A stretch of 64,000 bases of DNA from a virus (taxonomy: Duplodnaviria > Heunggongvirae > Uroviricota > Caudoviricetes). Below the pieces are notes generated by a model. It saw only the letters and a list, made by a program, of their open reading frames with translations, was not told the DNA's origin and did no database searches. Positions 3,413 to 53,413 of the stretch are shown one piece after another; positions within the stretch are counted from its first letter, which is position 1; every line of letters begins with the position of its first letter. The stretch lies in IMG/VR virus record IMGVR_UViG_3300020451_002055, one strand, 5' to 3'. The translations under genes and the position numbers were made by a program.

Positions 3413-3956
3413 GGCCAAGAAGCTTGCATTCGCGGCCCATGCCGATCAGTTTAGAGACGACGGCCAAGCCTATATCATTCACCCCTCAAGCGTTGTCGAT
3501 CGAATCGAGGCCGCAGGATGCAGCGATGAAAGAGTCATCTGCGCTGCATGGCTGCATGATGTTGTCGAAGACACAGAATGGACAAGCGGTCATATTGAAA
3601 TGCTCTTCGGCGAAGAGATCGCCGAAATTGTTGACCAGTTGACGCTTCCGGTTCCAGATCGATGGCCGCACAACTTCCATCAAGGGCGGGAGTTGAAGAC
3701 GCTAGCTCTGATGGGCAAGGCAACAATCATGTCTCCCGCCGCTAAGGTTATCAAGATCGCAGATCGCATCGATAACCTGAGTTCTGCCAAGGGAACTTGG
3801 AAGGCATCAAGGCTTGCTGCGTATGCAGTCCAAGCAGACCGTTTCTTGCAAGCCATGGAACTGACAACAACTCCCGAGATGGAGTTTTATAGAGCATACC
3901 AGGAACTTCTGACCCAAGTCAGAGACATCATCAGCAGCATCCAACAAGGACAATAA
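3336..3956 (+). CDS. HD-domain (p)ppGpp hydrolase-like protein (small alarmone hydrolase/Mesh1 type)
   Basis: AH..QFR...YIIHP, AAWLHDVVEDT, IKIADRIDNL motifs of RelA/SpoT hydrolase domain. Confidence 0.85.
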   Translation: MATMVNGTLTDQAWLKEMEAMSPRDRAKKLAFAAHADQFRDDGQAYIIHPSSVVDRIEAAGCSDERVICAAWLHDVVEDTEWTSGHIEMLFGEEIAEIVDQLTLPVPDRWPHNFHQGRELKTLALMGKATIMSPAAKVIKIADRIDNLSSAKGTWKASRLAAYAVQADRFLQAMELTTTPEMEFYRAYQELLTQVRDIISSIQQGQ

Positions 3957-29015: not shown

Positions 29016-29510
29016 ATGGGCTACAACTGGCAGAAGAAGATGATCATTTTGCGAGGACTACCCGGTTCGGGCAAGTCTACTCTCGCATCTGATATGTTCC
29101 ACAACAACTTCTTCGATCCTAGGGCTCAGGTCGATTACCTGGTCGAGGGCGATGACTACCGCACTGTTCAGGGCGAGTACCGATACGATCCCGATCAGAA
29201 CTTCCTCGCTCAGGCGTGGTGCTGCTCGGAAGCCTTTCGCAGACTGCAATCGCAAGACATCATCTTTGTCGCGAATGTTTTCGCCAAGCGAGAGCATATC
29301 TTTCCGTACCTCGAATGGGCTCGAAAGCTTGAAGTGCGGGTTCTTTTGGTTGAAACCTCGACGCCTTGGGCTCTCGACAAAGACCAGCTTGTCGAGAAGA
29401 ACGTGCATGATGTTCCGCTTGAGAGCATCGAACATATGATGGAATCATGGGAGGGCCTGTCTCAGGCCGAAGTCGAAGTTCTTGTTGGACATCCTTGGGA
29501 GACGCTATGA
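29016..29510 (+). CDS. P-loop kinase (AAA_33/polynucleotide kinase-like)
   Basis: ILRGLPGSGKST, GDDY, KNVHDVP. Confidence 0.8.
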   Translation: MGYNWQKKMIILRGLPGSGKSTLASDMFHNNFFDPRAQVDYLVEGDDYRTVQGEYRYDPDQNFLAQAWCCSEAFRRLQSQDIIFVANVFAKREHIFPYLEWARKLEVRVLLVETSTPWALDKDQLVEKNVHDVPLESIEHMMESWEGLSQAEVEVLVGHPWETL

Positions 29511-30499
29511 GCAGCAATGGAACCACTGGTCTTTCTATCTTCTCTGGCCGCAACTCCCAAGTCCTGACAAGGAGAGTTTGCGAAGCGATCGACCATCCGC
29601 TCGCGAACTCTGAAACCGAAGTCTTTCCCGATGGAGAGCTTCTGGTCAAAGTCAAAGAAGATGTCCGAGGTCGAGACTGCTTCATCGTCCTCTCGACATG
29701 CCAGCCATGCAACGACAACCTCGCAGAACTGCTGATCTTCGTTGACTGTCTCAAGCGAGCATCAGCAAGACAAGTTACTTGCGTCGTCCCTTACTACGGT
29801 TACGCTCGACAGGACCGGAAAGACAAGGGGCGAGTGCCGATTACGGCCAAGCTCGTTGCGAACCTGATTGCTGCATCCAACGCAGACCGAGTGGTTACAT
29901 GCGATCTGCATGCTGCCCAGATTCAAGGCTTCTTCGATATCCCTGTTGACCATCTGCATGCAACGCCCGTCTTCCATGATTACTTTCAGAGCATCCGAGA
30001 GCAACTCGGCGATCTTTGCCTTGTTTCTCCCGATGTCGGCAACGTCAAGGTTGCAGAAGGCTTTGCGAATCTGCTCGATGCTGACATCGCAATCATCAAC
30101 AAGAAGCGAATCAGCGGCACAAAGACAGAGGCCGCTCAGATCATCGGTAACGTTGAGGGCAAGAACATCCTCATGTTCGATGACATGATTTCGACGGCGG
30201 GCACTGTTCTCAATGCCGCCAGACTTGTTCGAGAGCATGGGGCAAAAGAGATTACGGTTGCCGCTACGCATCCGTTGCTTGCTGATCCTGCCATCGAGCG
30301 TCTTTCAGATGACCTGATTACTCGCGTCGTATGCACTGATACGATTCCTTCCGGAAATCGTCCTGATGTCATTGAGGGTCTTGGGAACAAGTACGTTGAA
30401 CTCTCCGTCTCTCGACTTCTTGGCGAAGCTATTGTTCGAGTTCATGAAGATCGCTCGATCAGCGAACTGTTCTCGGGCACGGCAGGCGTAAAGCGTTGA
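29507..30499 (+). CDS. prs: ribose-phosphate pyrophosphokinase
   Basis: FPDGE, PYYGYARQDRK, DLHAAQIQGFFD, VSPDVG, DDMISTAGT. Confidence 0.95.
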   Translation: MSSNGTTGLSIFSGRNSQVLTRRVCEAIDHPLANSETEVFPDGELLVKVKEDVRGRDCFIVLSTCQPCNDNLAELLIFVDCLKRASARQVTCVVPYYGYARQDRKDKGRVPITAKLVANLIAASNADRVVTCDLHAAQIQGFFDIPVDHLHATPVFHDYFQSIREQLGDLCLVSPDVGNVKVAEGFANLLDADIAIINKKRISGTKTEAAQIIGNVEGKNILMFDDMISTAGTVLNAARLVREHGAKEITVAATHPLLADPAIERLSDDLITRVVCTDTIPSGNRPDVIEGLGNKYVELSVSRLLGEAIVRVHEDRSISELFSGTAGVKR

Positions 30500-42573: not shown

Positions 42574-44061
42574 ATGGCTACCCCATTCAGGACCAGAATC
42601 CCTCGACTGACAGACTCATACAAGGTTTCCCATGCGGCTCAGTATCCAGACGGAACCTCCAAGGTATACAGCTACTTTGAGTCCCGAGGAGGCAAGTTCC
42701 CTGTTACTGGTCTTTTTGGCCTCCAATACATCCTCATGGCTTACCTCGAAGGCGAGGTAGCTACGCAGCGAGACATCAACCGAGATCAGCACTTTTTCGC
42801 TGCCCACTTCTTCGGGAATGGAGCCCTTCACAACAAGGCAGGTTGGCAGCGCATCGTCGATGTTCATGGCGGGCGACTGCCTGTCCGCATCATGGCGGCT
42901 CCCGAGGGAACGATCGCCCCGAACAGCAACGTCCTCTTCACCATCGAAAACCTCGATCCTCAACTCTACTGGTTGACCAATTACATCGAGTCGATCCTCC
43001 TGCATGCATGGTCGGCTTCTACCGTCATGACCGGCAGCCGCAACAGCAAGCAGATTCTCTTCAACGCTCTTGAGCGGTCTGGCGATCCTTCGGGCCTCCC
43101 GTTCAAGCTGCATGATTTTGGCTTCCGCGGCGTTTCGAGCGTCGAGACCGCTGCAACCGCTGGAGCGGCCCATCTTGTCAACTTCATGGGAACGGACACG
43201 CTCATCGCCTGCGATCTCATTGCTCAATACTATTCGGGTAAGCGACCCGAAGAAGTTGAAGCGATGAGCGATGACGAGTACGGTCGTTTCATCGCAGAGA
43301 ACATGGCCGGGCACTCCATTCCGGCGTCCGAGCATTCGACCATCACGACATGGGGCGAGGATGGGGAGATCGATGCATTCCGCAACATGCTCAAAGTCTA
43401 CCCGAGCGGTCTTGTTGCATGCGTCTCGGACTCTTGGGATATCGATCGAGCATGCAGCGAGCTTTGGCCCTCGCTCAAGGGCGAAATTGAAGCACGCGAC
43501 GGTCTTCTCGTTGTCCGTCCTGACTCTGGCGAGCCCACCGATGTTGTTCCTCGCATCCTTGGTCATCTCGCCGAGGGATTCGGATACACGACCAACAGCA
43601 AGGGCTTCAAGGTTCTGCATGATCAGGTCCGCGTCATTCAAGGCGACGGCATCGACTTCGACAGCATCTCGACCATCCTCGATGCGGTCATGGATGCAGG
43701 TTTTTCTGCCGACAACATTGCCTTCGGATCTGGCGGCGGACTGCTGCAGAAGGTCAACCGCGATACGCAGCGGGTTGCCATCAAGTGCAGCCATGCGATC
43801 ATCAATGGCGAAGAAACGGATGTTTTCAAGCGTCCGAAGACTGACCCGACAAAGGACAGCAAGCGAGGAAGGCTCGCTCTCGTTCAGACTCATGACGGCC
43901 TCGCTACGGTTCAGGAATCGGATGCCGACAATTACGCTGGCGGCAACCAGTTGATCGAGGTCTTCAACAACGGCGAGGTTTGCAACCTGCAGTCGTTCTC
44001 TGACATTCGTCGTCGGGCGGAACTTCCTGAGGTTGCTGAACTGTCTGCCGCTACTGCCTAA
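42574..44061 (+). CDS. nadV: nicotinamide phosphoribosyltransferase (NAMPT)
   Basis: TDSYKVSH..QYP, LHDFGFRG, PASEHS, VSDSWD, RPDSG, IQGDG, FGSGGGLLQ. Confidence 0.95.
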   Translation: MATPFRTRIPRLTDSYKVSHAAQYPDGTSKVYSYFESRGGKFPVTGLFGLQYILMAYLEGEVATQRDINRDQHFFAAHFFGNGALHNKAGWQRIVDVHGGRLPVRIMAAPEGTIAPNSNVLFTIENLDPQLYWLTNYIESILLHAWSASTVMTGSRNSKQILFNALERSGDPSGLPFKLHDFGFRGVSSVETAATAGAAHLVNFMGTDTLIACDLIAQYYSGKRPEEVEAMSDDEYGRFIAENMAGHSIPASEHSTITTWGEDGEIDAFRNMLKVYPSGLVACVSDSWDIDRACSELWPSLKGEIEARDGLLVVRPDSGEPTDVVPRILGHLAEGFGYTTNSKGFKVLHDQVRVIQGDGIDFDSISTILDAVMDAGFSADNIAFGSGGGLLQKVNRDTQRVAIKCSHAIINGEETDVFKRPKTDPTKDSKRGRLALVQTHDGLATVQESDADNYAGGNQLIEVFNNGEVCNLQSFSDIRRRAELPEVAELSAATA

Positions 44062-44083
44062 TCAACCTGACGGAGGCTCGCTG

Positions 44084-44818
44084 ATGGATAATGTCTTTCT
44101 CAAGAGCGTTCAGTCGTTCATTACTCGCTTCCCTGAAGGCAGGACTCCTTGCTCGTTCTTTGTGACAGGCGGAGGATTCAGTCTGCTCGACATCGGAAAG
44201 GTGCCGGGAGCAAGTAAGGTTTTGGCTGATGCGTACATTGCGTACCATATGCTCGAAGAGATTGCTGTCCTCAATACCGTTGTTGCGGATCATACCGACA
44301 AACTGACCAACGGAGACATCGGCTTCGTTTCTCCATGGACTACTTACTGGTATGCCCGAGCTATGATGGCTCGGCATGCTGCGACTATTCCTGATGCTAC
44401 GATTTGCGTTGTCAATGCGAGCCTGACAACTAATCGGTGGCGTCGAGGAAAGAATGAAGCTTTCTTTGCTGTTGTCAACAGACCAGTGGACAGCAAAGAC
44501 GGCGAAGTTCGCATGTTCAGACTCGATATGGATAAGCTTGAGGAGGACGAATACGCCCGAATCGAGCATCAACATCAAATCGCTTTGTCGGGTCTTTCAG
44601 ATCCGAGCCAAGCCCCTTTGCATCCGATCACACAACGCCGCGCCTTTGAAGATGAGAAGGTTGCTCAGGTTGCTATGGGACTTCTTCTTGAAGACCCAAC
44701 GCTCGTCCGCTTGATCGAGCATAGCGAAGCTGTCTATCCAATCGAGATTGAAGGCGATCCCACAAACCCCGAAAGCTTCGTCCCTCAGTTGGACGCGCCA
44801 TGGACAGCAAGGCCCTGA
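44084..44818 (+). CDS. CinA-like protein (N-terminal partner of NMN adenylyltransferase)
   Basis: VTGGG...VPGASK...RRG motifs. Confidence 0.55.
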   Translation: MDNVFLKSVQSFITRFPEGRTPCSFFVTGGGFSLLDIGKVPGASKVLADAYIAYHMLEEIAVLNTVVADHTDKLTNGDIGFVSPWTTYWYARAMMARHAATIPDATICVVNASLTTNRWRRGKNEAFFAVVNRPVDSKDGEVRMFRLDMDKLEEDEYARIEHQHQIALSGLSDPSQAPLHPITQRRAFEDEKVAQVAMGLLLEDPTLVRLIEHSEAVYPIEIEGDPTNPESFVPQLDAPWTARP

Positions 44819-44819
44819 T

Positions 44820-45464
44820 ATGCCCAAGATGACGCTCGAACAAGCCCATGCTCGCGTTCAGCGAGACTCCCTCTTTGCCTTCGTCTACGACGACGGCTTT
44901 GCTCAGCCGGTCTACGACCTTGAGGCCCCCTGGGTCGAGCGAGAGGTTCATTTGCTGCCCGGCAGCTTCAATCCGATCCATCGAGCCCATGAAGCGATGT
45001 TCGAGCAGATGCGAAGGAACGGCATCTACGCAGCCTACGAGATCAGCATGGAGCGGATCGACAAGGAGTTCCTGACCTACGAAGAACTGCAGGCACGACT
45101 TGTTCAGTTCAACGGTAAGGGTCCGGTCCTTGTTGACCGCTGGCCCTACTTCATGCAGAAAGCGGGTATCCTCCGCAACTGGAACCTGACTTTCCATGTC
45201 GGCGTTGATACTGCCATCCGGCTTGTCGAGTCTCATGGGATTGCCGGAATCCAAGGAATTGCGGCTGATTTCGTCGTCTACGACCGCATTTGGGAAAACA
45301 GACGGCAAGGCCTCGGAAGCTGCATGGTCTTCGCCAACCGGACTCCCTCGAACTTTCGACCCGGCAATACGCCTGATGAGACTCTTCTCGGGTTGTCTTC
45401 TACTGCTATCCGGGCGGGTCATCAGACCCCGGACGGCAGAGCAATCGCCTCAGCGACCAACTGA
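44820..45464 (+). CDS. NMN/NaMN adenylyltransferase-like (HxGH family)
   Basis: LPGSFNPIHRAH, VGVDT, LSSTAIR. Confidence 0.8.
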   Translation: MPKMTLEQAHARVQRDSLFAFVYDDGFAQPVYDLEAPWVEREVHLLPGSFNPIHRAHEAMFEQMRRNGIYAAYEISMERIDKEFLTYEELQARLVQFNGKGPVLVDRWPYFMQKAGILRNWNLTFHVGVDTAIRLVESHGIAGIQGIAADFVVYDRIWENRRQGLGSCMVFANRTPSNFRPGNTPDETLLGLSSTAIRAGHQTPDGRAIASATN

Positions 45465-45859: not shown

Positions 45860-45923
45860 GTTTGGGTTGAAGAATCAAGGTTATCTTGACAATGGCTCCT
45901 TGGTTCAACTCCCTTACCCAAAC
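45860..45923 (+). ncRNA. minimal Y RNA-like element 1
   Basis: GTTTGGGT-TGA-A-GAATCAAGG-TTATC...CCTTGGTTC-AACTCC-CTT-ACCCAAAC. Confidence 0.7.
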
Positions 45924-45928
45924 GTCAT

Positions 45929-46002
45929 CAGAGTGTAGCTCAGTTTGGCAGAGCGTCTGGTTCGGGGCCAGAAGGCCGGAGGTTCAAATCCTCTCACTCT
46001 GA
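45929..46002 (+). tRNA. tRNA-Pro(CGG)
   Basis: CAGAGTG/CACTCTG, TCTGG-TTCGGGG-CCAGA. Confidence 0.92.
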
Positions 46003-46227
46003 CTTTTGAAAACTGAATAAAGGACGAAGTATGGATGCAAAGAGAGCATTGTTAGACGTAGCAGACCGGGCACTAACTCATCAGTTCATCATGTCGAAAA
46101 GACTGAAACCGGGTGAGTTCCTAGAACGGTATACTACGGCAGAAGAACGAGAAGCTTTGAAAGGCCTCAGGAGTGAGGACGCTCAAAGCCCTCTAAGACA
46201 CATGCTTGATTTGTATCGATGAACGTA

Positions 46228-46387
46228 GGAGGTTTGGGCAGTAAGTTGCGATGAGAACCGTTGCGATCCGGGGACTTGAGAGACTTACCTCTCCCCGGTC
46301 GAGACACCCCACATCGGCTGGCACGTTGCTCAACAGTTCGTTGGAAGTCGAGGTTTGGATACCTCGATAGACCAGCCTCAAACCTCC
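46228..46387 (+). ncRNA. candidate structured ncRNA
   Basis: Closing helix GGAGGTTTGGG/CTCAAACCTCC with internal hairpins; no + strand ORF in the track. Confidence 0.5.
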
Positions 46388-46605
46388 ACAACATAAGGAT
46401 CAGATGATGCTTGGAAGCCTCATTAGCAAAGACACCGAAAGGCAGATCGCCGTAGCAGTTCGAGCGGCGAGCCTCGCTAAGGCAGCAGAATCTCTCGCAG
46501 TTGCGTCATCCAATGTCGCAGCCGCAGACGAGCGTCTCGCTCAAGACCTTCGGGTCACAGTCGGTCGTTTGCATGATGAAGTCAAAAGCCTCATCTGATC
46601 CTAGA

Positions 46606-46679
46606 CAGGGCGTAGCTCAGCTTGGTAGAGCGTCTGGTTTGGGACCAGAAGGCCGCACGTTCGAATCGTGTCGCCCTGA
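46606..46679 (+). tRNA. tRNA-Pro(TGG)
   Basis: CAGGGCG/CGCCCTG, TCTGG-TTTGGGA-CCAGA. Confidence 0.92.
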
Positions 46680-46683
46680 TTGA

Positions 46684-46887
46684 ATGGCAAGTATTTGTTC
46701 GAAACATCAAGAGTATGATCCGGATTGCGATCTATGCAAAGTAGACCTTTCTGATAGTCCTCTGTTTCAACAAATGCATGCCGAAGCAGAAGCAGCAGGC
46801 ACGCATGTCTGCGAGGAATGCAAGTTCCTCTATTACAAGACTGTCGATTCATGTCCGCTCTGCGGTCATCGACGGATTGACAACTGA
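46684..46887 (+). CDS. small Zn-finger protein
   Basis: CxxH/CxxC and CEEC..CPLC motifs. Confidence 0.6.
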   Translation: MASICSKHQEYDPDCDLCKVDLSDSPLFQQMHAEAEAAGTHVCEECKFLYYKTVDSCPLCGHRRIDN

Positions 46888-46890
46888 ATA

Positions 46891-47049
46891 GACTTTTGAT
46901 CTGTAGGAACCTGTTTAGGCAGGGAAATAAGGCCGGTATTACCAAACCTCGGTACACGGTCGCGAGCCTGAGGAAGGCAAGCCTGTCGGAGTAAGCTCCC
47001 GATTCTGTCCAAGAGTAAGAGGTTGTGAGGACGAGCAGATCAAGCAGTC
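46891..47049 (+). ncRNA. candidate structured ncRNA
   Basis: Closing helix GACTTTTGATCTG/CAGATCAAGCAGTC, starts right after TTGACAACTGAATA motif. Confidence 0.45.
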
Positions 47050-47078
47050 TACGGGATAAAACCCGTCTACTGCTTTCA

Positions 47079-47138
47079 TGGGCTGAAGAGTCAAGGTTAA
47101 CTTGGTAATGTTGCACCCTTGCCTCACTAACTTGCCCA
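47079..47138 (+). ncRNA. minimal Y RNA-like element 2
   Basis: TGGGC-TGA-A-GAGTCAAGG-TTAAC...CCTTGCCTC-ACTAA-CTT-GCCCA. Confidence 0.7.
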
Positions 47139-47151
47139 GACAATCAAAGAT

Positions 47152-47222
47152 CGGACTGAAGAATAGAAGGTTAACTTCAATTTTGATTTGAAACCCAACA
47201 CCCTTCATTCACTCCTTGTCCG
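47152..47222 (+). ncRNA. minimal Y RNA-like element 3
   Basis: CGGAC-TGA-A-GAATAGAAGG-TTAAC...CCTTCATTC-ACTC-CTT-GTCCG. Confidence 0.7.
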
Positions 47223-47230
47223 TTCTTGTT

Positions 47231-47359
47231 AGCGACGTAGCTCAATTGGTAGAGCGCCTAAAAGGTCTTCAACCAACGCCTTACCCGGCACGGGTTGATG
47301 GAATTGAAGGTTATCGCATGTGGAGCGGGAGGTTGCAGGTTCGAGTCCTGTCGTCGCGA
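47231..47359 (+). ncRNA. tRNA-shaped RNA with Y-like stem in anticodon arm (A)
   Basis: Acceptor GCGACG/CGTCGC, D arm, T arm; insert CTT-ACCCG GCA CGGGT-TGA...GGTTATC. Confidence 0.8.
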
Positions 47360-47377
47360 TTGAAAAACTGAATACAA

Positions 47378-47502
47378 CGCAACGTAGTTTAACGGCAAAA
47401 CACCTAAACATCGTTGTCCGCCCCTTACCCGATTCGGGTTGATGGAATTGACGGTTATCCTCTATCAAAGGGGTGATCCAGGTTCGAATCCTGGCGTTGC
47501 GT
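47378..47502 (+). ncRNA. tRNA-shaped RNA with Y-like stem in anticodon arm (B)
   Basis: Acceptor CGCAACG/CGTTGCG, D arm GTTT/AAAC, T arm; insert CTT-ACCCG ATT CGGGT-TGA...GGTTATC. Confidence 0.8.
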
Positions 47503-47523
47503 TTGAAAACTGAATAGACTTTT

Positions 47524-47626
47524 ACGGGTTGAATGCAATCGTTTATCGTTGGTTCAAGTCCAATCGCCGTTCTGCGGCGTAGCCCCAACTCAGGCGAGGG
47601 GCATTCGAGAGCAGTACCTTACCCGT
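47524..47626 (+). ncRNA. YrlA-type Y RNA (T arm, loop-closed acceptor stem, D arm inside terminal stem)
   Basis: ACGGGT-TGA...TTTATC-GTTGG TTCAAGT CCAAT-CGCCG TTCTG CGGCG-TA-GCCCC..GGGGC...CTT-ACCCGT. Confidence 0.8.
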
Positions 47627-47630
47627 TTTT

Positions 47631-47761
47631 CGTGCAGTAGCTCAACAGGTAGAGCGGCAGTCAAAAAGGTCCATGACCGATTTGCTTGCTCGTTTCGAGT
47701 TGAAGGTTGATGGTTATCTATCGCAAAACTGCTTGTGGAGGTTCGAGTCCTTCCTGCACGA
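47631..47761 (+). ncRNA. tRNA-shaped RNA with Y-like stem in anticodon loop (C)
   Basis: Acceptor CGTGCAG/CTGCACG, anticodon stem GCAGT/ACTGC; insert CTT-GCTCG TTT CGAGT-TGA...GGTTATC. Confidence 0.8.
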
Positions 47762-47764
47762 CTT

Positions 47765-47836
47765 CGCGGAGTGGAGAAGTAGTAACTCGCTTGGCTCATA
47801 ACCAAGAGATCGGTGGTGCAAATCCATCCTCCGCTA
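47765..47836 (+). tRNA. tRNA-Met(CAT), initiator-like
   Basis: C1:T72 mismatch, CTTGG-CTCATAA-CCAAG. Confidence 0.85.
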
Positions 47837-47847
47837 TTTTGAACATT

Positions 47848-48109
47848 GCAGGCGATTCTGCGATCGCCGGTTAGGGTAAGATGCACGCAGCAGAAGGTTC
47901 CTAGGGATACCGAAGTGCGTCCGGCGGCAAAGAGAACGCAGAACTCTACCGTCGAGACGAGGACACATCTGCTAGAGAGCCAGGTGGGGAATCTGGTTGT
48001 AATGTTCAGAAGCATGACGAGCCGCTTGCGAGACGCAAGGGTTTCTGCAGAGATCGGACCGATCCTAGGCAAATCCTAGGGGTAGGCCCCAAACAGGAGT
48101 ATCGCCTGT
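47848..48109 (+). ncRNA. candidate large structured ncRNA (~260 nt)
   Basis: Closing helix GCAGGCGAT/ATCGCCTGT; hairpins CTTGCG AGA CGCAAG and CCTAGG CAAAT CCTAGG. Confidence 0.5.
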
Positions 48110-48181
48110 TCTCGTCATTTCAACATACCCGGTTGACCTCTACCTGAAAGGGATACGTCAATAATGGCCGGGTTTACATTT

Positions 48182-48255
48182 GGGGATGTAGCTCAATTGA
48201 GTAGAGTGCCCGCCTGTCTAGCGGGTGGTTGAGGGTTCGAGTCCCTTCATCCTCG
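48182..48255 (+). tRNA. tRNA-Asp(GTC)
   Basis: GGGGATG/CATCCTC, CCCGC-CTGTCTA-GCGGG. Confidence 0.9.
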
Positions 48256-48268
48256 TTTGCCCAACTTT

Positions 48269-48340
48269 GGGGCGTTAGTTTAATCGGGAAAACCCCAGAC
48301 TGTCGATCTGGAATAGCGGGATCGAAACCCGCACGCCTCG
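48269..48340 (+). tRNA. tRNA-Asp(GTC)
   Basis: GGGGCGT/ACGCCTC, CCAGA-CTGTCGA-TCTGG. Confidence 0.85.
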
Positions 48341-48731
48341 TTCTTACTCAGGAGACTCGCAATGGACAATACCCCATTCTACAAACGATCCGCCTTCTGG
48401 AAAGGCGTTGCGTTTGGAGTCGTTGCCGGATTCCTCTTCGTGTTCCTTGCATGAAAGTGAAGAAGTCTTCCGATATCCTATGACATCGGCTACTCCGTAA
48501 CGATCTGCAACGCGGAGGTGCAAGCGAGGCTGAGGTAATCAGGAGGAACCTCGCTTGTAAAAGTCGCTGATTTGATTGAAGGTGCAGACAGTTGCTCGGC
48601 TAGGGACGCCTAAGTCGCCATCGGATGAAAGGGCCGGAAGCAGCTTTTCGTGAATCAGTAATGCTGGTTCTTAGTTGTTGACGAAACGACTGTAGCGACC
48701 TACCAATCGCTGCACATTTTGGGATTGAGCA

Positions 48732-49244
48732 ATGCTGCTCGACAGTCTTAGGCCAACTCAATGCGGTCTTCGATACGTTGATCAGATTGCAAGCATGGTC
48801 GAGTTTGTCCGATCAGGCGGTGTCTTCTCGCAAGAAGCTCTGCTGAGGTTTGCGGAGGCAAACAATCATGAGCCGGACAACCTCATTCAGGTTCGTCGGT
48901 TTGAGGATGGGACTCACTTTATCCATGACGGGCACCATAGATGCCTTTCGATCTGGCTTGCCGGACGAGAGAACCTTGATGCCCAAGAATTTGATTTGTC
49001 TATCTGGCATTACCACCAGTATGGAGAGATCAACTTTGATGCGGGTTATGTGACACCACATGACCCGAGAGAAGAAACCCGATACGCCGACTTCTTTGGA
49101 TTCAAGTCGGAAGCTCGGAAGATTGCAGAAACTTCGGTCGAAGAAGCGATCGAGTTCATCAGAGGAAACAGGTCTCGTTACTGCGAGCCGCGGACCTGTT
49201 GGCATGTAAGAGATTTGGCCGCAACCTTGCCTCTAAGAGGCTGA
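48732..49244 (+). CDS. ParB/Srx-like domain protein
   Basis: LRPTQ ... FIHDGHHR motif. Confidence 0.7.
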   Translation: MLLDSLRPTQCGLRYVDQIASMVEFVRSGGVFSQEALLRFAEANNHEPDNLIQVRRFEDGTHFIHDGHHRCLSIWLAGRENLDAQEFDLSIWHYHQYGEINFDAGYVTPHDPREETRYADFFGFKSEARKIAETSVEEAIEFIRGNRSRYCEPRTCWHVRDLAATLPLRG

Positions 49245-49262: not shown

Positions 49263-50933
49263 ATGGCATACACGAAGCACTTCAGCGCAAAGAAGACCCC
49301 GCAGAACGTCCCGACTCCGGGGAAGAACCAGAAGAAGAACAACGCGGGCGGTTACGTCTATGAGATCACTCCTTGGGATCGCTTGCAGCGATTCCTGATC
49401 CTAGGCTCCGAGGGCGGCTCGTACTACGTCGGCGAGCGTAAGCTCACCGTCGATAACGCGAACTGCGTAATCGATTGCCTCAAGGAGGACGGTCGTCGCG
49501 TCGTGGACATGATCGTGGAGATTTCGGATGCGGGTCGCGCCGCTAAGAACACTCCGGCTCTGTTCGCGCTGGCTCTCGCTGCATCGGCGGATGAGCTTGA
49601 GACCCGCAAGTACGCGCTCGCAAACCTCTCGAAGGTTGCGCGTATCGGTACTCACCTCTTCGAGTTCGCGCAGTTCGTCAACCAGTTCCGTGGTTGGGGT
49701 CGTAACCTCAAGGAGTCGATCGCTAACTGGTACCTTGACATGGACGCAGAGCGTCTGGCCTACCAGGTCGTCAAGTACCCGCAGCGCACGACCGAGGAGG
49801 GCGACAGCCTGTCGGTATGGTCGCACCGCGACCTGCTCCGTAAGGTCCGCCCGAGCAACGTCAAGGGAGATCACAACAAGATCTTCGGCTATGTAACTCA
49901 GGGATGGGACACCATCCCGAGCCGTAGCCCGAAGGCTTTGCAGATCATCCGCGGAACCGAGAAGATCAAGCGAGCAAAGAGCGCAGATGAGGCCGCAGGT
50001 CTCATCGAGGAGTTCTCGTTGCCGCACGAGGTTGTTCCGAAGGAGTTCTCGGGAGATCCGAAGGTTCTCACCGCCCTCCTGCAGAGCATGCCGTTGACTG
50101 CGACGATGCGTAACCTTGGTCGCTTGACCGCGCGAGGCGTTCTTGTCCCGATGGGCAAGGAGACCTCGATGGTTATCGATCGCCTGACGGATGAGGACTA
50201 CATCCGCAAGAGCAGGATCCACCCGATCAACGTTCTTGCGGCTCTGAAGACCTACTCGCAGGGCTCAGGTCACCGCGGAAGCATGTCTTGGCAGCCGATT
50301 CAGCCGATCGTCGATGCTCTCGACTCGATGCTCTACAAGAGCTTCGGGAACATCGAGCCGACCGGCAAGAAGATTCTCATTGCCCTCGATGTTTCGGCGT
50401 CGATGGACTGGGACGGCTGCTCGGGCTTGAGCCAGATTACTCCGCGCGAGGCTTCGGCTGTCATGTCCATGGCAACCGCTCGCGTTGAGAAGAACTACCA
50501 CATCGTCGCTTTCTCAAGCGGCGGTTGGTCGAGAGGCTCGGGCCGTAGTCGCTACGGTTGGGGCTCGGGTATCCAGGATGTGGCGATCTCGCCTCGTCAG
50601 CGTTTGGACTCGGTAGTTAGCACCGTTTCTAGCCTGCCAGCAGGCGGAACCGACTGCGCTTTGCCGATGCTCTACGCTACCGAGAAGGGAATGGACATCG
50701 ACGCATTCGTTGTCTACACGGACAACGATACCTGGGCAGGAGACATCCACGCGGATCAGGCACTCAGAGAGTACCGCCGAAAGTTCAACCCGGAGGCGAA
50801 GCTCATTGTTGCCGGAACCGCATCGACCGAGTTCTCGATCGCTGACCCGAGCGATCCGGGCATGCTCGATGTTGTCGGATTCGACTCGTCGGCTCCGAGC
50901 GTCATCTCCTCGTTCATTCGAGGCATGGACTAA
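49263..50933 (+). CDS. rsr: Ro60 (TROVE + vWA) RNA-binding protein
   Basis: NNAGGYVY, RLQRFLILGSEGGSYY, WSHRDLLR, RNLGR, SRIHP, MIDAS DVSASM, GGTDC, YTDNDTW, MLDVVGFDS. Confidence 0.96.
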   Translation: MAYTKHFSAKKTPQNVPTPGKNQKKNNAGGYVYEITPWDRLQRFLILGSEGGSYYVGERKLTVDNANCVIDCLKEDGRRVVDMIVEISDAGRAAKNTPALFALALAASADELETRKYALANLSKVARIGTHLFEFAQFVNQFRGWGRNLKESIANWYLDMDAERLAYQVVKYPQRTTEEGDSLSVWSHRDLLRKVRPSNVKGDHNKIFGYVTQGWDTIPSRSPKALQIIRGTEKIKRAKSADEAAGLIEEFSLPHEVVPKEFSGDPKVLTALLQSMPLTATMRNLGRLTARGVLVPMGKETSMVIDRLTDEDYIRKSRIHPINVLAALKTYSQGSGHRGSMSWQPIQPIVDALDSMLYKSFGNIEPTGKKILIALDVSASMDWDGCSGLSQITPREASAVMSMATARVEKNYHIVAFSSGGWSRGSGRSRYGWGSGIQDVAISPRQRLDSVVSTVSSLPAGGTDCALPMLYATEKGMDIDAFVVYTDNDTWAGDIHADQALREYRRKFNPEAKLIVAGTASTEFSIADPSDPGMLDVVGFDSSAPSVISSFIRGMD

Positions 50934-52897: not shown

Positions 52898-53413
52898 ATG
52901 GCAAGCAACAACGGTCTTTCCCGTCGTGCGCCGACAACCAACAGTCGGCAAGAGATGATTCGCGGTAGCGAGCATCCTCTCAACTTCAATAGTCCTGTTC
53001 TGGACCGCTTCTTTAATTCAAGCATCGGATTCAATGAGATGTTTGATCGCCTTTTCGAAGGCGTCCCAAAGAAGCTCGACTCATATCCGCCTTACAACTT
53101 GTTCAAGTACGACAGCGGCTATTTACTAGAAATGGCAGTTGCGGGTTTTCCTCGCGACAACATCAGTATTTACCGCGAAAACGGAGACCTCATTATCGAA
53201 GGAAGCAAGCCATCGATGAGCGAGGAAGAACAAGAAGCGAACTGCAAATCGGTTCTCCATCAAGGCTTGGCCCTTCGGGGTTTCAAACAGGTTTTGAAGG
53301 TTTCGGATTTGATCGAGGTCCAAGAGGCCCGCCTCGAAGACGGCATCCTCAGGATCAAGCTCGAACAGGTAGAGCCTGATCCGCCCGATCGAGAGTATAT
53401 ACAGATCGGGTAA
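52898..53413 (+). CDS. Hsp20 small heat-shock protein
   Basis: YPPYNL, LEMAVAGF, LHQGLALRGF, ARLEDGILRI. Confidence 0.93.
   Translation: MASNNGLSRRAPTTNSRQEMIRGSEHPLNFNSPVLDRFFNSSIGFNEMFDRLFEGVPKKLDSYPPYNLFKYDSGYLLEMAVAGFPRDNISIYRENGDLIIEGSKPSMSEEEQEANCKSVLHQGLALRGFKQVLKVSDLIEVQEARLEDGILRIKLEQVEPDPPDREYIQIG

What the first reader, a model, noticed from the sequence alone, without database searches (positions are those of the whole stretch)
47231..47761. tRNA-Y RNA chimeras: Y-like stem grafted into the anticodon arm of three different tRNA bodies
Seen: elements 47231-47359, 47378-47502 and 47631-47761 have normal tRNA order (open acceptor ends, D arm, T arm) but carry a 50-60 nt insert holding the Y-like stem closed by a 3-nt loop. 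Residual anticodon-like loops follow GGTTATC: ATGTGGA (GTG, His-like), CTATCAA on a Gly-like body, and TCGCAAA (GCA, Cys-like) before ACTGC. Inference: independent grafts onto different tRNAs. With free acceptor ends they could be matured by RNase P and CCA addition and even aminoacylated, tethering Ro60 to tRNA machinery or acting as decoys for host anticodon nucleases. tRNA finders would probably call them pseudo- or intron-containing tRNAs.
Basis: partly seen in the sequence, partly recalled or inferred. Interest (0 to 1): 0.88.

Follow-up and report, generated by a model that had tools for sequence, protein, structure and literature searches.

The report
tRNA-shaped Y RNAs beside phage Ro60
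Three small RNA genes in a large aquatic phage are built like ordinary tRNAs but carry an extra hairpin matching the docking site for the phage's own Ro60 ring protein. They are the known bacterial "tRNA-like Y RNA" wired in normal tRNA order, a layout I did not find described in the papers I could search.

Summary
Elements 47231-47359, 47378-47502 and 47631-47761 each have their own 7-position acceptor stem (6, 7 and 7 pairs), a D arm, a T arm and the tRNA elbow nucleotides. Each also carries a 54-66 nt hairpin closed by a 3-nt loop. A Ro60/Rsr gene lies 1.5 kb downstream on the same strand.

The hairpin tip is the bulged helix of Ro60-binding Y RNAs, followed by GGUUAUC. It equals the 3' and 5' ends of Rfam YrlA joined by a loop, so these are circular permutants of YrlA with open acceptor ends. 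A classic-order YrlA at 47524-47630, with the same terminal helix, sits between them.

Seventeen copies from nine related phage contigs covary: 92% of cells paired, 25 of 29 pairs changed on both sides. A model built from them finds 57 such elements in 40 of 89 Rsr loci, always on the Rsr strand.

Two corrections. In el1 and el2 the hairpin is an extra arm between position 26 and an intact anticodon-like arm; only el3 has it inside the anticodon stem. The shared insertion point argues for one origin, not independent grafts.

Expression, processing, Rsr binding and function are inferred. This scan has met the same class before on other DNA.

The parts
47231..47359 (+). el1: tRNA-order Y RNA, 129 nt. 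Acceptor 47231-47237 / 47352-47358, D arm 47240-47255, T arm 47335-47351, discriminator A 47359.
   Evidence: Sequence; regex scan; model R1 102 bits; ortholog L011 3063-3188.
47257..47312 (+). el1 extra arm. Ro60-site-type hairpin: apical stem 47283-47287 / 47291-47295, loop GCA, bulged U then GA; GGUUAUC at 47309-47315.
   Evidence: Covarying helices 3 and 5; matches the joined Rfam YrlA termini.
47313..47329 (+). el1 anticodon-like arm. A.G plus 4 bp, 7-nt loop 47318-47324 with U33, GUG, G37; 5-nt variable loop follows.
   Evidence: After in-silico removal of the arm, ARAGORN calls a 73-nt tRNA (GTG); fixed-geometry test.
47378..47502 (+). el2: tRNA-order Y RNA, 125 nt. Acceptor 47378-47384 / 47495-47501, D arm 47387-47401, T arm 47478-47494.
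   Evidence: model R1 116.6 bits; orthologs L009 3287-3411, L010 3863-3986, L011 3530-3655.
47403..47456 (+). el2 extra arm. Apical stem 47427-47431 / 47435-47439, loop AUU; GGUUAUC at 47453-47459.
47457..47473 (+). el2 anticodon-like arm, loop 47462-47468 (CUAUCAA); 4-nt variable loop follows.
   Evidence: Orthologs have CUGCUAA, so the triplet is not conserved.
47631..47761 (+). el3: tRNA-order Y RNA, 131 nt. Acceptor 47631-47637 / 47754-47760, D arm 47640-47655, anticodon stem 47657-47661 / 47728-47732, T arm 47737-47753. tRNA-Met starts 3 nt later.
   Evidence: Rfam tRNA 49.4 bits with a 65-nt insertion; model R1 95.5 bits.
47662..47727 (+). el3 insert inside the anticodon stem. Apical stem 47688-47692 / 47696-47700, loop UUU; GGUUAUC at 47712-47718.
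   Evidence: By eye the enclosing stem covaries in L009 3546-3672 and L010 4003-4129; the count on the mixed alignment was no better than slid controls.
47524..47630 (+). Classic-order YrlA. The 5'/3' ends form the same bulged helix, then T arm, closed acceptor-like stem-loop and D-like arm; ends in a U run.
   Evidence: Rfam YrlA end-to-end 27.6 bits, E 2e-4 in a local search, below the gathering score; conserved in L009, L011, L013.
45863..45920 (+). Minimal Y RNA: lower stem with a bulged U, upper stem, loop starting UUAUC.
   Evidence: Pattern script. Homologs by the same pattern in L011, L013, L014 and L026, plus one in unrelated L051.
47079..47138 (+). Minimal Y RNA.
   Evidence: homologs visible in L009 and L010.
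47152..47222 (+). Minimal Y RNA.
49263..50933 (+). Ro60/Rsr ortholog, 556 aa.
   Evidence: Pfam TROVE 2.3e-30 and vWA_Ro60 1.3e-58; thousands of homologs.

Best explanation
The three elements are genes for Y RNAs of the YrlA kind, written in uninterrupted tRNA order.

Anatomy, shown by sequence and comparison:
- Each RNA keeps a tRNA's acceptor stem (formed by its own two ends), D arm, T arm and elbow nucleotides.
- Each adds a 54-66 nt hairpin. Its tip is the Ro60-type helix: a 5-bp stem, a bulged pyrimidine, then G.U and A-U pairs. The GGUUAUC motif follows.
- In el1 and el2 the hairpin is a fifth arm between position 26 and an intact anticodon-like arm. In el3 it sits inside the anticodon stem.
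- The hairpin equals the two ends of a classic YrlA joined by a triloop. The RNAs are therefore circular permutants of YrlA with the break moved to the acceptor stem.

Inferred mechanism:
- They are transcribed with the surrounding tRNA cluster.
- They are released like tRNAs (RNase P, 3' trimming, CCA addition) and fold into an L shape.
- The phage Rsr ring (49263-50933) binds the hairpin.
- The tRNA body is the effector end. It couples Rsr to a tRNA-binding partner or presents the particle as a tRNA look-alike during infection.

The varied and often A34-initial 'anticodons' suggest that loop shape, not decoding, is what selection keeps.
For: - Rsr gene 1.5 kb downstream on the same strand. 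The order NAMPT, tRNA/ncRNA gap, small ORF, rsr is kept in five of the eight related contigs; it is altered or cut off in the other three.
- Structure with covariation on an unfitted alignment: 92.4% of cells paired, 25 of 29 pairs changed on both sides. The apical insert helix has 5 of 5 such pairs.
- The pair next to the bulge switches between G-C and A-U in step: AU 9, GC 7, GU 1.
- Relatives carry the exact published GNCGAA motif on the hairpin's 3' strand, where a permuted YrlA should have it (motif from PMC4201824).
- The Rfam YrlA consensus termini match the hairpin's two strands.
- The same helix occurs in seven RNAs of three layouts in this locus.
- Model R1 finds 57 long copies in 40 of 89 Rsr loci, all on the Rsr strand.
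- In 4 of 7 tandem pairs the acceptor halves pair within an element (7 of 7 counting wobbles) and less well across: 1-5 of 7 counting wobbles.
- Elbow nucleotides are intact.
- Published precedent: M. smegmatis YrlA is cut by RNase P and receives CCA (PMC4201824).
Against: - There are no expression, end-mapping or binding data.
- In this window the bulged base is U where the published motif has C, and el1 and el2 read GAU rather than GAA.
- No single element reaches any Rfam YrlA score. The only hit, 23.4 bits, spans the el1/el2 junction.
- Single-sequence MFE folds do not return the cloverleaf, and z-scores are weak at -0.9 to -2.3.
- The 3' acceptor strand of el1 pairs 6 of 7 with the 5' strand of el2, so a junction-spanning classic YrlA cannot be excluded here from sequence alone.
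- The intact anticodon-like arms of el1 and el2 leave room for a tRNA function.
Confidence: 0.75

Rival explanations
1. They are real decoding tRNAs (el1 His-type GUG, el2 AUC). The hairpin is a removable insert or a tolerated extra arm, and its link to Ro60 is secondary.
For: With the arm removed in silico, ARAGORN accepts el1 and el2 as 73- and 71-nt cloverleaves, and 36 of 59 family members likewise. Loop signatures U33 (16 of 18) and R37 (16 of 18) are kept.
Against: - No bacterial mechanism is known for excising a 54-nt hairpin at position 26/27 (established knowledge).
- The insert is far shorter than group I introns, and no intron family hit the region.
- el3 and other copies with an enclosing stem have no anticodon loop.
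- Triplets differ between orthologs (AUC against GCU) and often start with A34.
- el1 lacks G-1/C73.
- The GCU copies lack the long variable arm of bacterial tRNA-Ser.
- The arm is the most conserved part and recurs in tRNA-free Y RNAs.
Confidence: 0.08
2. The functional unit is a classic permuted YrlA made from the tandem el1-el2 transcript (about 47291-47431). It would use the T arm of el1, a closed stem from the two adjacent acceptor halves, and the D arm of el2. The tRNA-order reading would then be an artefact of the repeat.
For: Rfam YrlA aligns to 47327-47407 at 23.4 bits, E 0.035. Cross-pairing of the acceptor halves is 6 of 7. The apical stems of el1 and el2 are identical, so the outer stem could form.
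Against: - Dimeric tRNAs are a known false positive of the YrlA model (PMC4201824).
- el3 is followed by tRNA-Met, not by another copy.
- The orthologs of el1 and el2 are not adjacent in L011.
- Single copies occur in L015, L016, L020 and L073.
- In L012, L014, L023 and L035 cross-pairing fails while pairing within each element is complete.
Confidence: 0.08
3. They are decayed tRNA pseudogenes hit by a mobile or repeated hairpin and have no function.
For: ARAGORN does not call them. el1 has an A.G mismatch at 1-72.
Against: Compensatory changes are kept in every helix across contigs whose Rsr is only 42-77% identical. Elbow nucleotides are invariant. Strand and position relative to rsr are conserved.
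Confidence: 0.03

Closest known systems
YrlA (Y RNA-like A; Rfam RF02553; Chen et al. 2014, PMC4201824; structure in Wang et al. 2018, bioRxiv 10.1101/312249)
   Same: Encoded next to rsr on the same strand. Has a Ro60-type helix with a GNCGAA-like motif. Has tRNA-like D and T arms, an acceptor-like stem and tRNA tertiary nucleotides. A true classic-order copy lies at 47524-47630.
   Different: The connectivity is reversed. Here the RNA ends form the acceptor stem and the Ro60 helix is closed by a triloop. In YrlA the ends form the Ro60 helix and the acceptor stem is closed. el1 and el2 also have a full anticodon-like arm. The Rfam model does not detect single elements.
[quoted passage not shown]
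   Same: A Y RNA with an open 7-bp acceptor stem that is recognised by tRNA-processing enzymes.
   Different: There the open acceptor is made by cutting a permuted RNA into two pieces. Here it is encoded directly in one continuous chain.
D. radiodurans Yrn1 (PMC4201824)
   Same: A Y RNA with tRNA-like features whose D-like and T-like elements are in the opposite order to YrlA relative to the RNA ends.
   Different: In Yrn1 the Ro60 helix is formed by the RNA ends, and the stem-loop between the arms takes the anticodon position. Here the Ro60 helix is internal and the ends are a normal acceptor stem.
Eukaryotic Y RNAs and nematode stem-bulge RNAs (PMC4450293)
   Same: A lower stem with a bulged pyrimidine, an upper stem, and a UUAUC motif at the 5' edge of the loop domain. 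The minimal Y RNAs of this locus share this plan.
   Different: No Rfam Y_RNA or sbRNA hit in the window. In the chimeras the loop domain is a tRNA body opened at the acceptor stem.
Circularly permuted tRNA genes of algae and archaea; dimeric-tRNA origin model for YrlA (discussed in 10.1101/312249)
   Same: The same permutation relation links a tRNA-order form and a form whose acceptor stem is closed.
   Different: Those are precursors processed back into ordinary tRNAs. Here both orders seem to be end products, and they lie side by side.

Membership tests
YrlA (RF02553) | Encoded within about 4 kb of a Ro60/Rsr gene on the same strand | tested here: met
   rsr at 49263-50933 (+); the elements lie 1.5-2.0 kb upstream (+).
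YrlA (RF02553) | GNCGAAN0-1G motif at the Ro60-binding helix | tested here: inconclusive
   The window has GNUGA(U/A): the bulged base is U instead of C. Orthologs in L009, L010 and L011 have the exact motif at the same place.
YrlA (RF02553) | tRNA-like D and T arms with conserved tertiary nucleotides | tested here: met
   U8, A14, G18G19, A21, UUCGA T loop and A15:U48 in all three.
YrlA (RF02553) | 5' and 3' ends form the Ro60 helix; acceptor-like stem closed by a loop | tested here: not met
   The ends form the acceptor stem and the Ro60 helix is closed by a 3-nt loop.
YrlA (RF02553) | Rfam gathering score of 69 bits | tested here: not met
   Only a 23.4-bit hit across the el1/el2 junction. 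The classic copy at 47522-47631 scores 27.6 bits.
YrlA (RF02553) | Bound by Rsr in cells | not testable with these tools
   Needs pull-down or gel-shift experiments.
tRNA (RF00005 / ARAGORN) | Cloverleaf with 7-bp acceptor, D arm, T arm and elbow nucleotides | tested here: met
tRNA (RF00005 / ARAGORN) | Anticodon arm of 5 bp plus a 7-nt loop, contiguous with the D arm | tested here: not met
   el1 and el2 have the arm but are separated from position 26 by a 54-56 nt hairpin. el3 has no 7-nt loop.
tRNA (RF00005 / ARAGORN) | Called by standard tRNA finders | tested here: inconclusive
   ARAGORN of 3. The Rfam tRNA model calls el3 only, at 49.4 bits.
tRNA (RF00005 / ARAGORN) | Identity elements matching the anticodon (el1 GUG: G-1 and C73 in bacteria) | tested here: not met
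   el1 has U at -1, A73 and an A1.G72 mismatch. The identity rule comes from established knowledge.
Intron-containing tRNA (group I) | Self-splicing group I intron, at least about 200 nt, in the anticodon loop | tested here: not met
   Inserts are 54-66 nt. No intron family hit at E up to 10.
Intron-containing tRNA (archaeal bulge-helix-bulge) | Bulge-helix-bulge motif at both insert borders | not tested
   Not examined. The neighbouring tRNAs look bacterial, and no splicing endonuclease was looked for.

The most novel reading that the evidence does not exclude
This locus preserves both sides of the event that created YrlA. On this reading, tRNA-order Y RNAs (a tRNA that acquired a Ro60-binding arm) are the ancestral form, and classic YrlA arose from tandem copies by a shift of the transcript ends. 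Further, the copies that keep an anticodon-shaped loop and an open acceptor end would be matured, given CCA and engaged by tRNA-recognising factors such as synthetases, EF-Tu or anticodon nucleases. The phage would then use them to bring Ro60 to tRNA damage or to bait tRNA-cleaving defences.
Probability: 0.25. Interest if true: 0.85.

Novelty: new variant of a known kind. Interest (0 to 1): 0.72.

Why it matters
What the tRNA-like half of bacterial Y RNAs binds, and how Y RNAs arose from tRNAs, are open questions (PMC4201824; 10.1101/312249).

- A natural form with an open acceptor end, and in some copies an anticodon-shaped loop, gives direct handles. Is it cut by RNase P, given CCA, charged, or cleaved by anticodon nucleases? 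Does Rsr ride along?
- The classic and tRNA-order forms lie side by side with the same terminal helix. This is the arrangement that the dimeric-tRNA origin model predicts.
- On the practical side, the current YrlA model and tRNA finders miss these genes. Rsr loci are therefore under-annotated, and some phage 'hypothetical proteins' may overlap them.

Tried and rejected
- No whole genome is held for the window.
- Nucleotide search against cultured phages matched only ordinary tRNAs.
- A search of IMG/VR with the single Rsr protein found nothing.
- An exact hairpin pattern in IMG/VR gave seven chance hits inside coding DNA.
- Single-sequence MFE folds did not recover the cloverleaf and had weak z-scores. 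I relied on comparative evidence instead.
- MAFFT on the 3' parts mis-registered the 4- and 5-nt variable loops. Counting the stems specific to one layout on the mixed alignment gave diluted results. For the small hairpin I replaced this with a fixed-geometry script. For the el3 enclosing stem I have only by-eye comparison of three sequences.
- My first regex for classic-order copies had a bug. The loosened version was noisy but found them.
- The 2020 Annual Review on bacterial Ro60 is not held. Subscription literature was not searchable, so 'undescribed' covers only the library searched.
- Group I intron reading rejected on size and the absence of any hit.
- 'Independent grafts' rejected because the insertion point is shared.

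Full report
**What is in the sequence**

The stretch 45860-48345 is a tRNA and small-RNA cluster on the + strand. ARAGORN finds 14 ordinary tRNAs in the window but none at the three elements. The Rfam tRNA model finds only 47631-47761, at 49.4 bits with a 65-nt insertion in the anticodon loop.

Read directly, each element begins and ends with complementary 7-nt strands:
- el1 has 6 of 7 pairs, with an A.G mismatch on top.
- el2 and el3 have 7 of 7 pairs.

Each element also has U8, a 4-bp D stem with a GG-containing loop, a 5-bp T stem with a UUCGA-type loop, A14, A21 and an A15:U48 pair. Between the D arm and the rest lies a long hairpin that ends in a 5-bp stem and a 3-nt loop.

**Context**

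- The ORF 49263-50933 (+) is a full-length Ro60/Rsr ortholog: TROVE 2.3e-30, Ro60 vWA 1.3e-58.
- The window carries phage-type topoisomerase II subunits, PRPP synthetase and NAMPT.
- The exact Rsr protein lies on a 188.5-kb contig of run ERR598996 and on other contigs of 0.2-1 Mb.
- This is therefore a very large phage known only from metagenomes. No genome is held, and no cultured phage is close at the DNA level.

**Relatives**

Rsr homologs of 60-77% identity were traced to eight contigs. Five of them keep the order NAMPT, two ORFs, an RNA gap, a ~170-aa ORF, rsr; in the other three it is altered or cut off. A simple scan for long tRNA-like units found 19 such elements in the window and these contigs.

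A plain MAFFT alignment of 17 of them (A1) supports six helices:
- 92.4% of cells are paired, against 35-46% when the partners are slid.
- 25 of 29 pairs change on both sides, and 0 of 500 shuffles reach the observed values.
- The acceptor, D and T stems were part of my selection rule. The fair test is therefore the insert, and its apical stem has 5 of 5 pairs with double changes and its proximal stem 4 of 5. The third, distal 3-bp helix is weaker (66.7% of cells paired).

**What the hairpin is**

Its tip reads as a 5-bp stem, a bulged pyrimidine, then G.U and A-U pairs. An example is GGGC-C-GA over UUGCCC in relatives and GGGU-U-GA over UUACCC here.

- This is the layout of the Ro60-binding helix of Y RNAs. 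It contains the GNCGAAN0-1G motif that Chen et al. defined for YrlA (PMC4201824).
- The base pair beside the bulge switches between G-C and A-U in step.
- The Rfam YrlA consensus starts with cggCgaAUGC and ends with AcUuGucGccg. These are the two strands of the hairpin tip.
- So the hairpin is the YrlA terminal helix closed by a triloop. The motif sits on the hairpin's 3' strand, which leads on to the T arm, exactly as a circular permutation requires.

**The permutation partner lies in the same locus**

- 47524-47630 aligns end to end with Rfam YrlA at 27.6 bits (E 2e-4 in a local search, below the gathering score).
- It has the same terminal helix, a T arm, a closed acceptor-like stem-loop and a D-like arm.
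- It is conserved in L009, L011 and L013, with acceptor-like stems that differ in length and sequence.

Three minimal Y RNAs (45863-45920, 47079-47138, 47152-47222) carry the same helix without any tRNA part. The locus thus holds seven RNAs with one protein-binding helix in three layouts.

**Two architectures**

In el1, el2 and many relatives, the AUC of GGUUAUC opens a stem of A.G plus 4 bp with a 7-nt loop. A 4-5 nt variable loop and the T arm follow.

- With position 27 and the T stem fixed, 18 of 54 distinct family members fit this geometry.
- Among those 18, U33 occurs in 16, a purine at 37 in 16, and there are four Watson-Crick pair types at each of pairs 30-40 and 31-39.
- Cutting out the hairpin in silico lets ARAGORN call el1 a 73-nt tRNA (GTG) and el2 a 71-nt tRNA (ATC). 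It accepts 36 of 59 members in all.
- In these copies the hairpin is therefore a fifth arm at the 26/27 junction, not a replacement of the anticodon arm.
- The triplets differ between orthologs (AUC against GCU) and often begin with A. el1 lacks G-1 and C73. Decoding seems not to be the constraint.

In el3 and its orthologs a 5-bp stem directly after position 26 encloses the hairpin. By eye this stem differs compensatorily in L009 and L010, but the count on the mixed alignment was no better than slid controls. There is no anticodon loop.

A classic YrlA in L067 also has GGUUAUC followed by the small hairpin. This arm probably corresponds to the 'V' stem-loop of YrlA.

**How widespread**

A covariance model from A1 was run over the window plus 88 Rsr loci, 734 kb in all.
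- It found 57 long copies above 50 bits in 40 sources, down to Rsr identities near 42%.
- Every hit lies on the Rsr strand.
- Ordinary tRNAs score 30-49 bits.
- Weaker long hits occur in cultured actinophages, mostly in unannotated DNA.

**The junction alternative**

The Rfam YrlA model weakly hits the el1/el2 junction (23.4 bits). This is a known false-positive mode for dimeric tRNAs.
- In this window the acceptor stems of el1 and el2 are similar, and cross-pairing is 6 of 7, so sequence alone does not exclude it.
- In L012, L014, L023 and L035, pairing within each element is complete (7 of 7 counting wobbles), while cross-pairing gives 1-5 of 7 counting wobbles.
- Many loci have single copies.
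- el3 is followed by tRNA-Met.

**Mechanism**

Shown: the anatomy, the conservation, and the link to rsr.

Inferred: the RNAs are made with the tRNA cluster, released by tRNA-processing enzymes and given CCA, as published for the M. smegmatis YrlA acceptor. They would be bound by the phage Rsr through the hairpin. The L-shaped body would then act as the effector end.

Which partner it meets is unknown. A tRNA-binding factor recognising the elbow was already proposed for YrlA (10.1101/312249).

**Novelty**

Searches of the held library for YrlA, Rsr, Y RNA, permuted and dimeric tRNA found only the classic-order descriptions. Wang et al. describe YrlA as resembling a circularly permuted tRNA and cite a dimeric-tRNA origin. 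The unpermuted form found here is the missing counterpart.

Notes from this same scan report the class on other DNA, and on this genome. I reached the reading before consulting them and tested it independently.

Noticed in passing
window 47524-47630: A classic-order YrlA with the same terminal bulged helix as the chimeras sits between el2 and el3. It ends in a U run that abuts el3. It is conserved in L009, L011 and L013, with acceptor-like stems of different length.
   Followed up: yes
window 45863-45920, 47079-47138, 47152-47222: Three minimal Y RNAs with a eukaryote-like plan: a lower stem with a bulged U, an upper stem, and a loop starting UUAUC or UUAAC. UUAUC at the 5' edge of the loop is a conserved feature of nematode stem-bulge RNAs (PMC4450293).
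   Followed up: partly
L067 3930-4070: The Rfam nematode sbRNA model ceN72-3_ceN74-2 hits a bacterial or phage classic YrlA at 26.7 bits (E 1e-3, local search). The shared blocks are GGGUUAUC and ACUUG(A/C)CCG.
   Followed up: no
window 46011, 46882, 47366, 47508: The exact 9-mer AACTGAATA occurs four times within 1.5 kb on the + strand. Three copies lie 7-8 nt after the 3' end of a tRNA or chimera; the fourth (46882) lies in the last codons of a small ORF. At 47508 it ends 8 nt before the 5' end of the classic YrlA. It may be a promoter or a processing signal. Another first-stage note reads it as boxA-like.
   Followed up: partly
window 46900-47060 and 47849-48180: Two further stretches without called genes. 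By eye each is conserved in sequence in L009 (2860-2990 and 3830-3935). Neither matches any Rfam family at E up to 10.
   Followed up: no
window 48732-49244: A 170-aa ORF with a weak ParB-like nuclease match lies 18 nt upstream of rsr. An ORF of similar size (167-194 aa) occupies this position in six of the eight related contigs (L009-L012, L014, L016). An HSP20 gene (52898-53413) lies about 2 kb downstream of rsr here, beyond a reverse-strand ORF, and directly after rsr in L009 and L013.
   Followed up: no
window 48360-48455: A small 31-codon ORF with a hydrophobic stretch lies after the tRNA-Asp pair. It is also called as a gene in L009 (4106-4201).
   Followed up: no
L011 3584-3655: ARAGORN and Rfam call a 72-nt 'tRNA-Ser(gct)' that is in fact the 3' two-thirds of a 126-nt chimera (3530-3655). 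This is an example of how these genes get mis-annotated.
   Followed up: partly
L099 1890-2030; L098 3704-3847; L097 4593-4745: Model R1 gives long hits near rsr in cultured phages. They are Streptomyces phage Blueeyedbeauty (44.7 bits, unannotated gap in the tRNA array), Gordonia phage Cashline (39.4 bits, just upstream of rsr) and Mycobacterium phage TinyTim (31.7 bits, overlapping a 'hypothetical protein' CDS).
   Followed up: partly
window 42574-45464: NAMPT followed by two ORFs, one with a weak cytidylyltransferase-like match. Together with PRPP synthetase (29447-30499) this looks like a phage NAD-salvage set.
   Followed up: no
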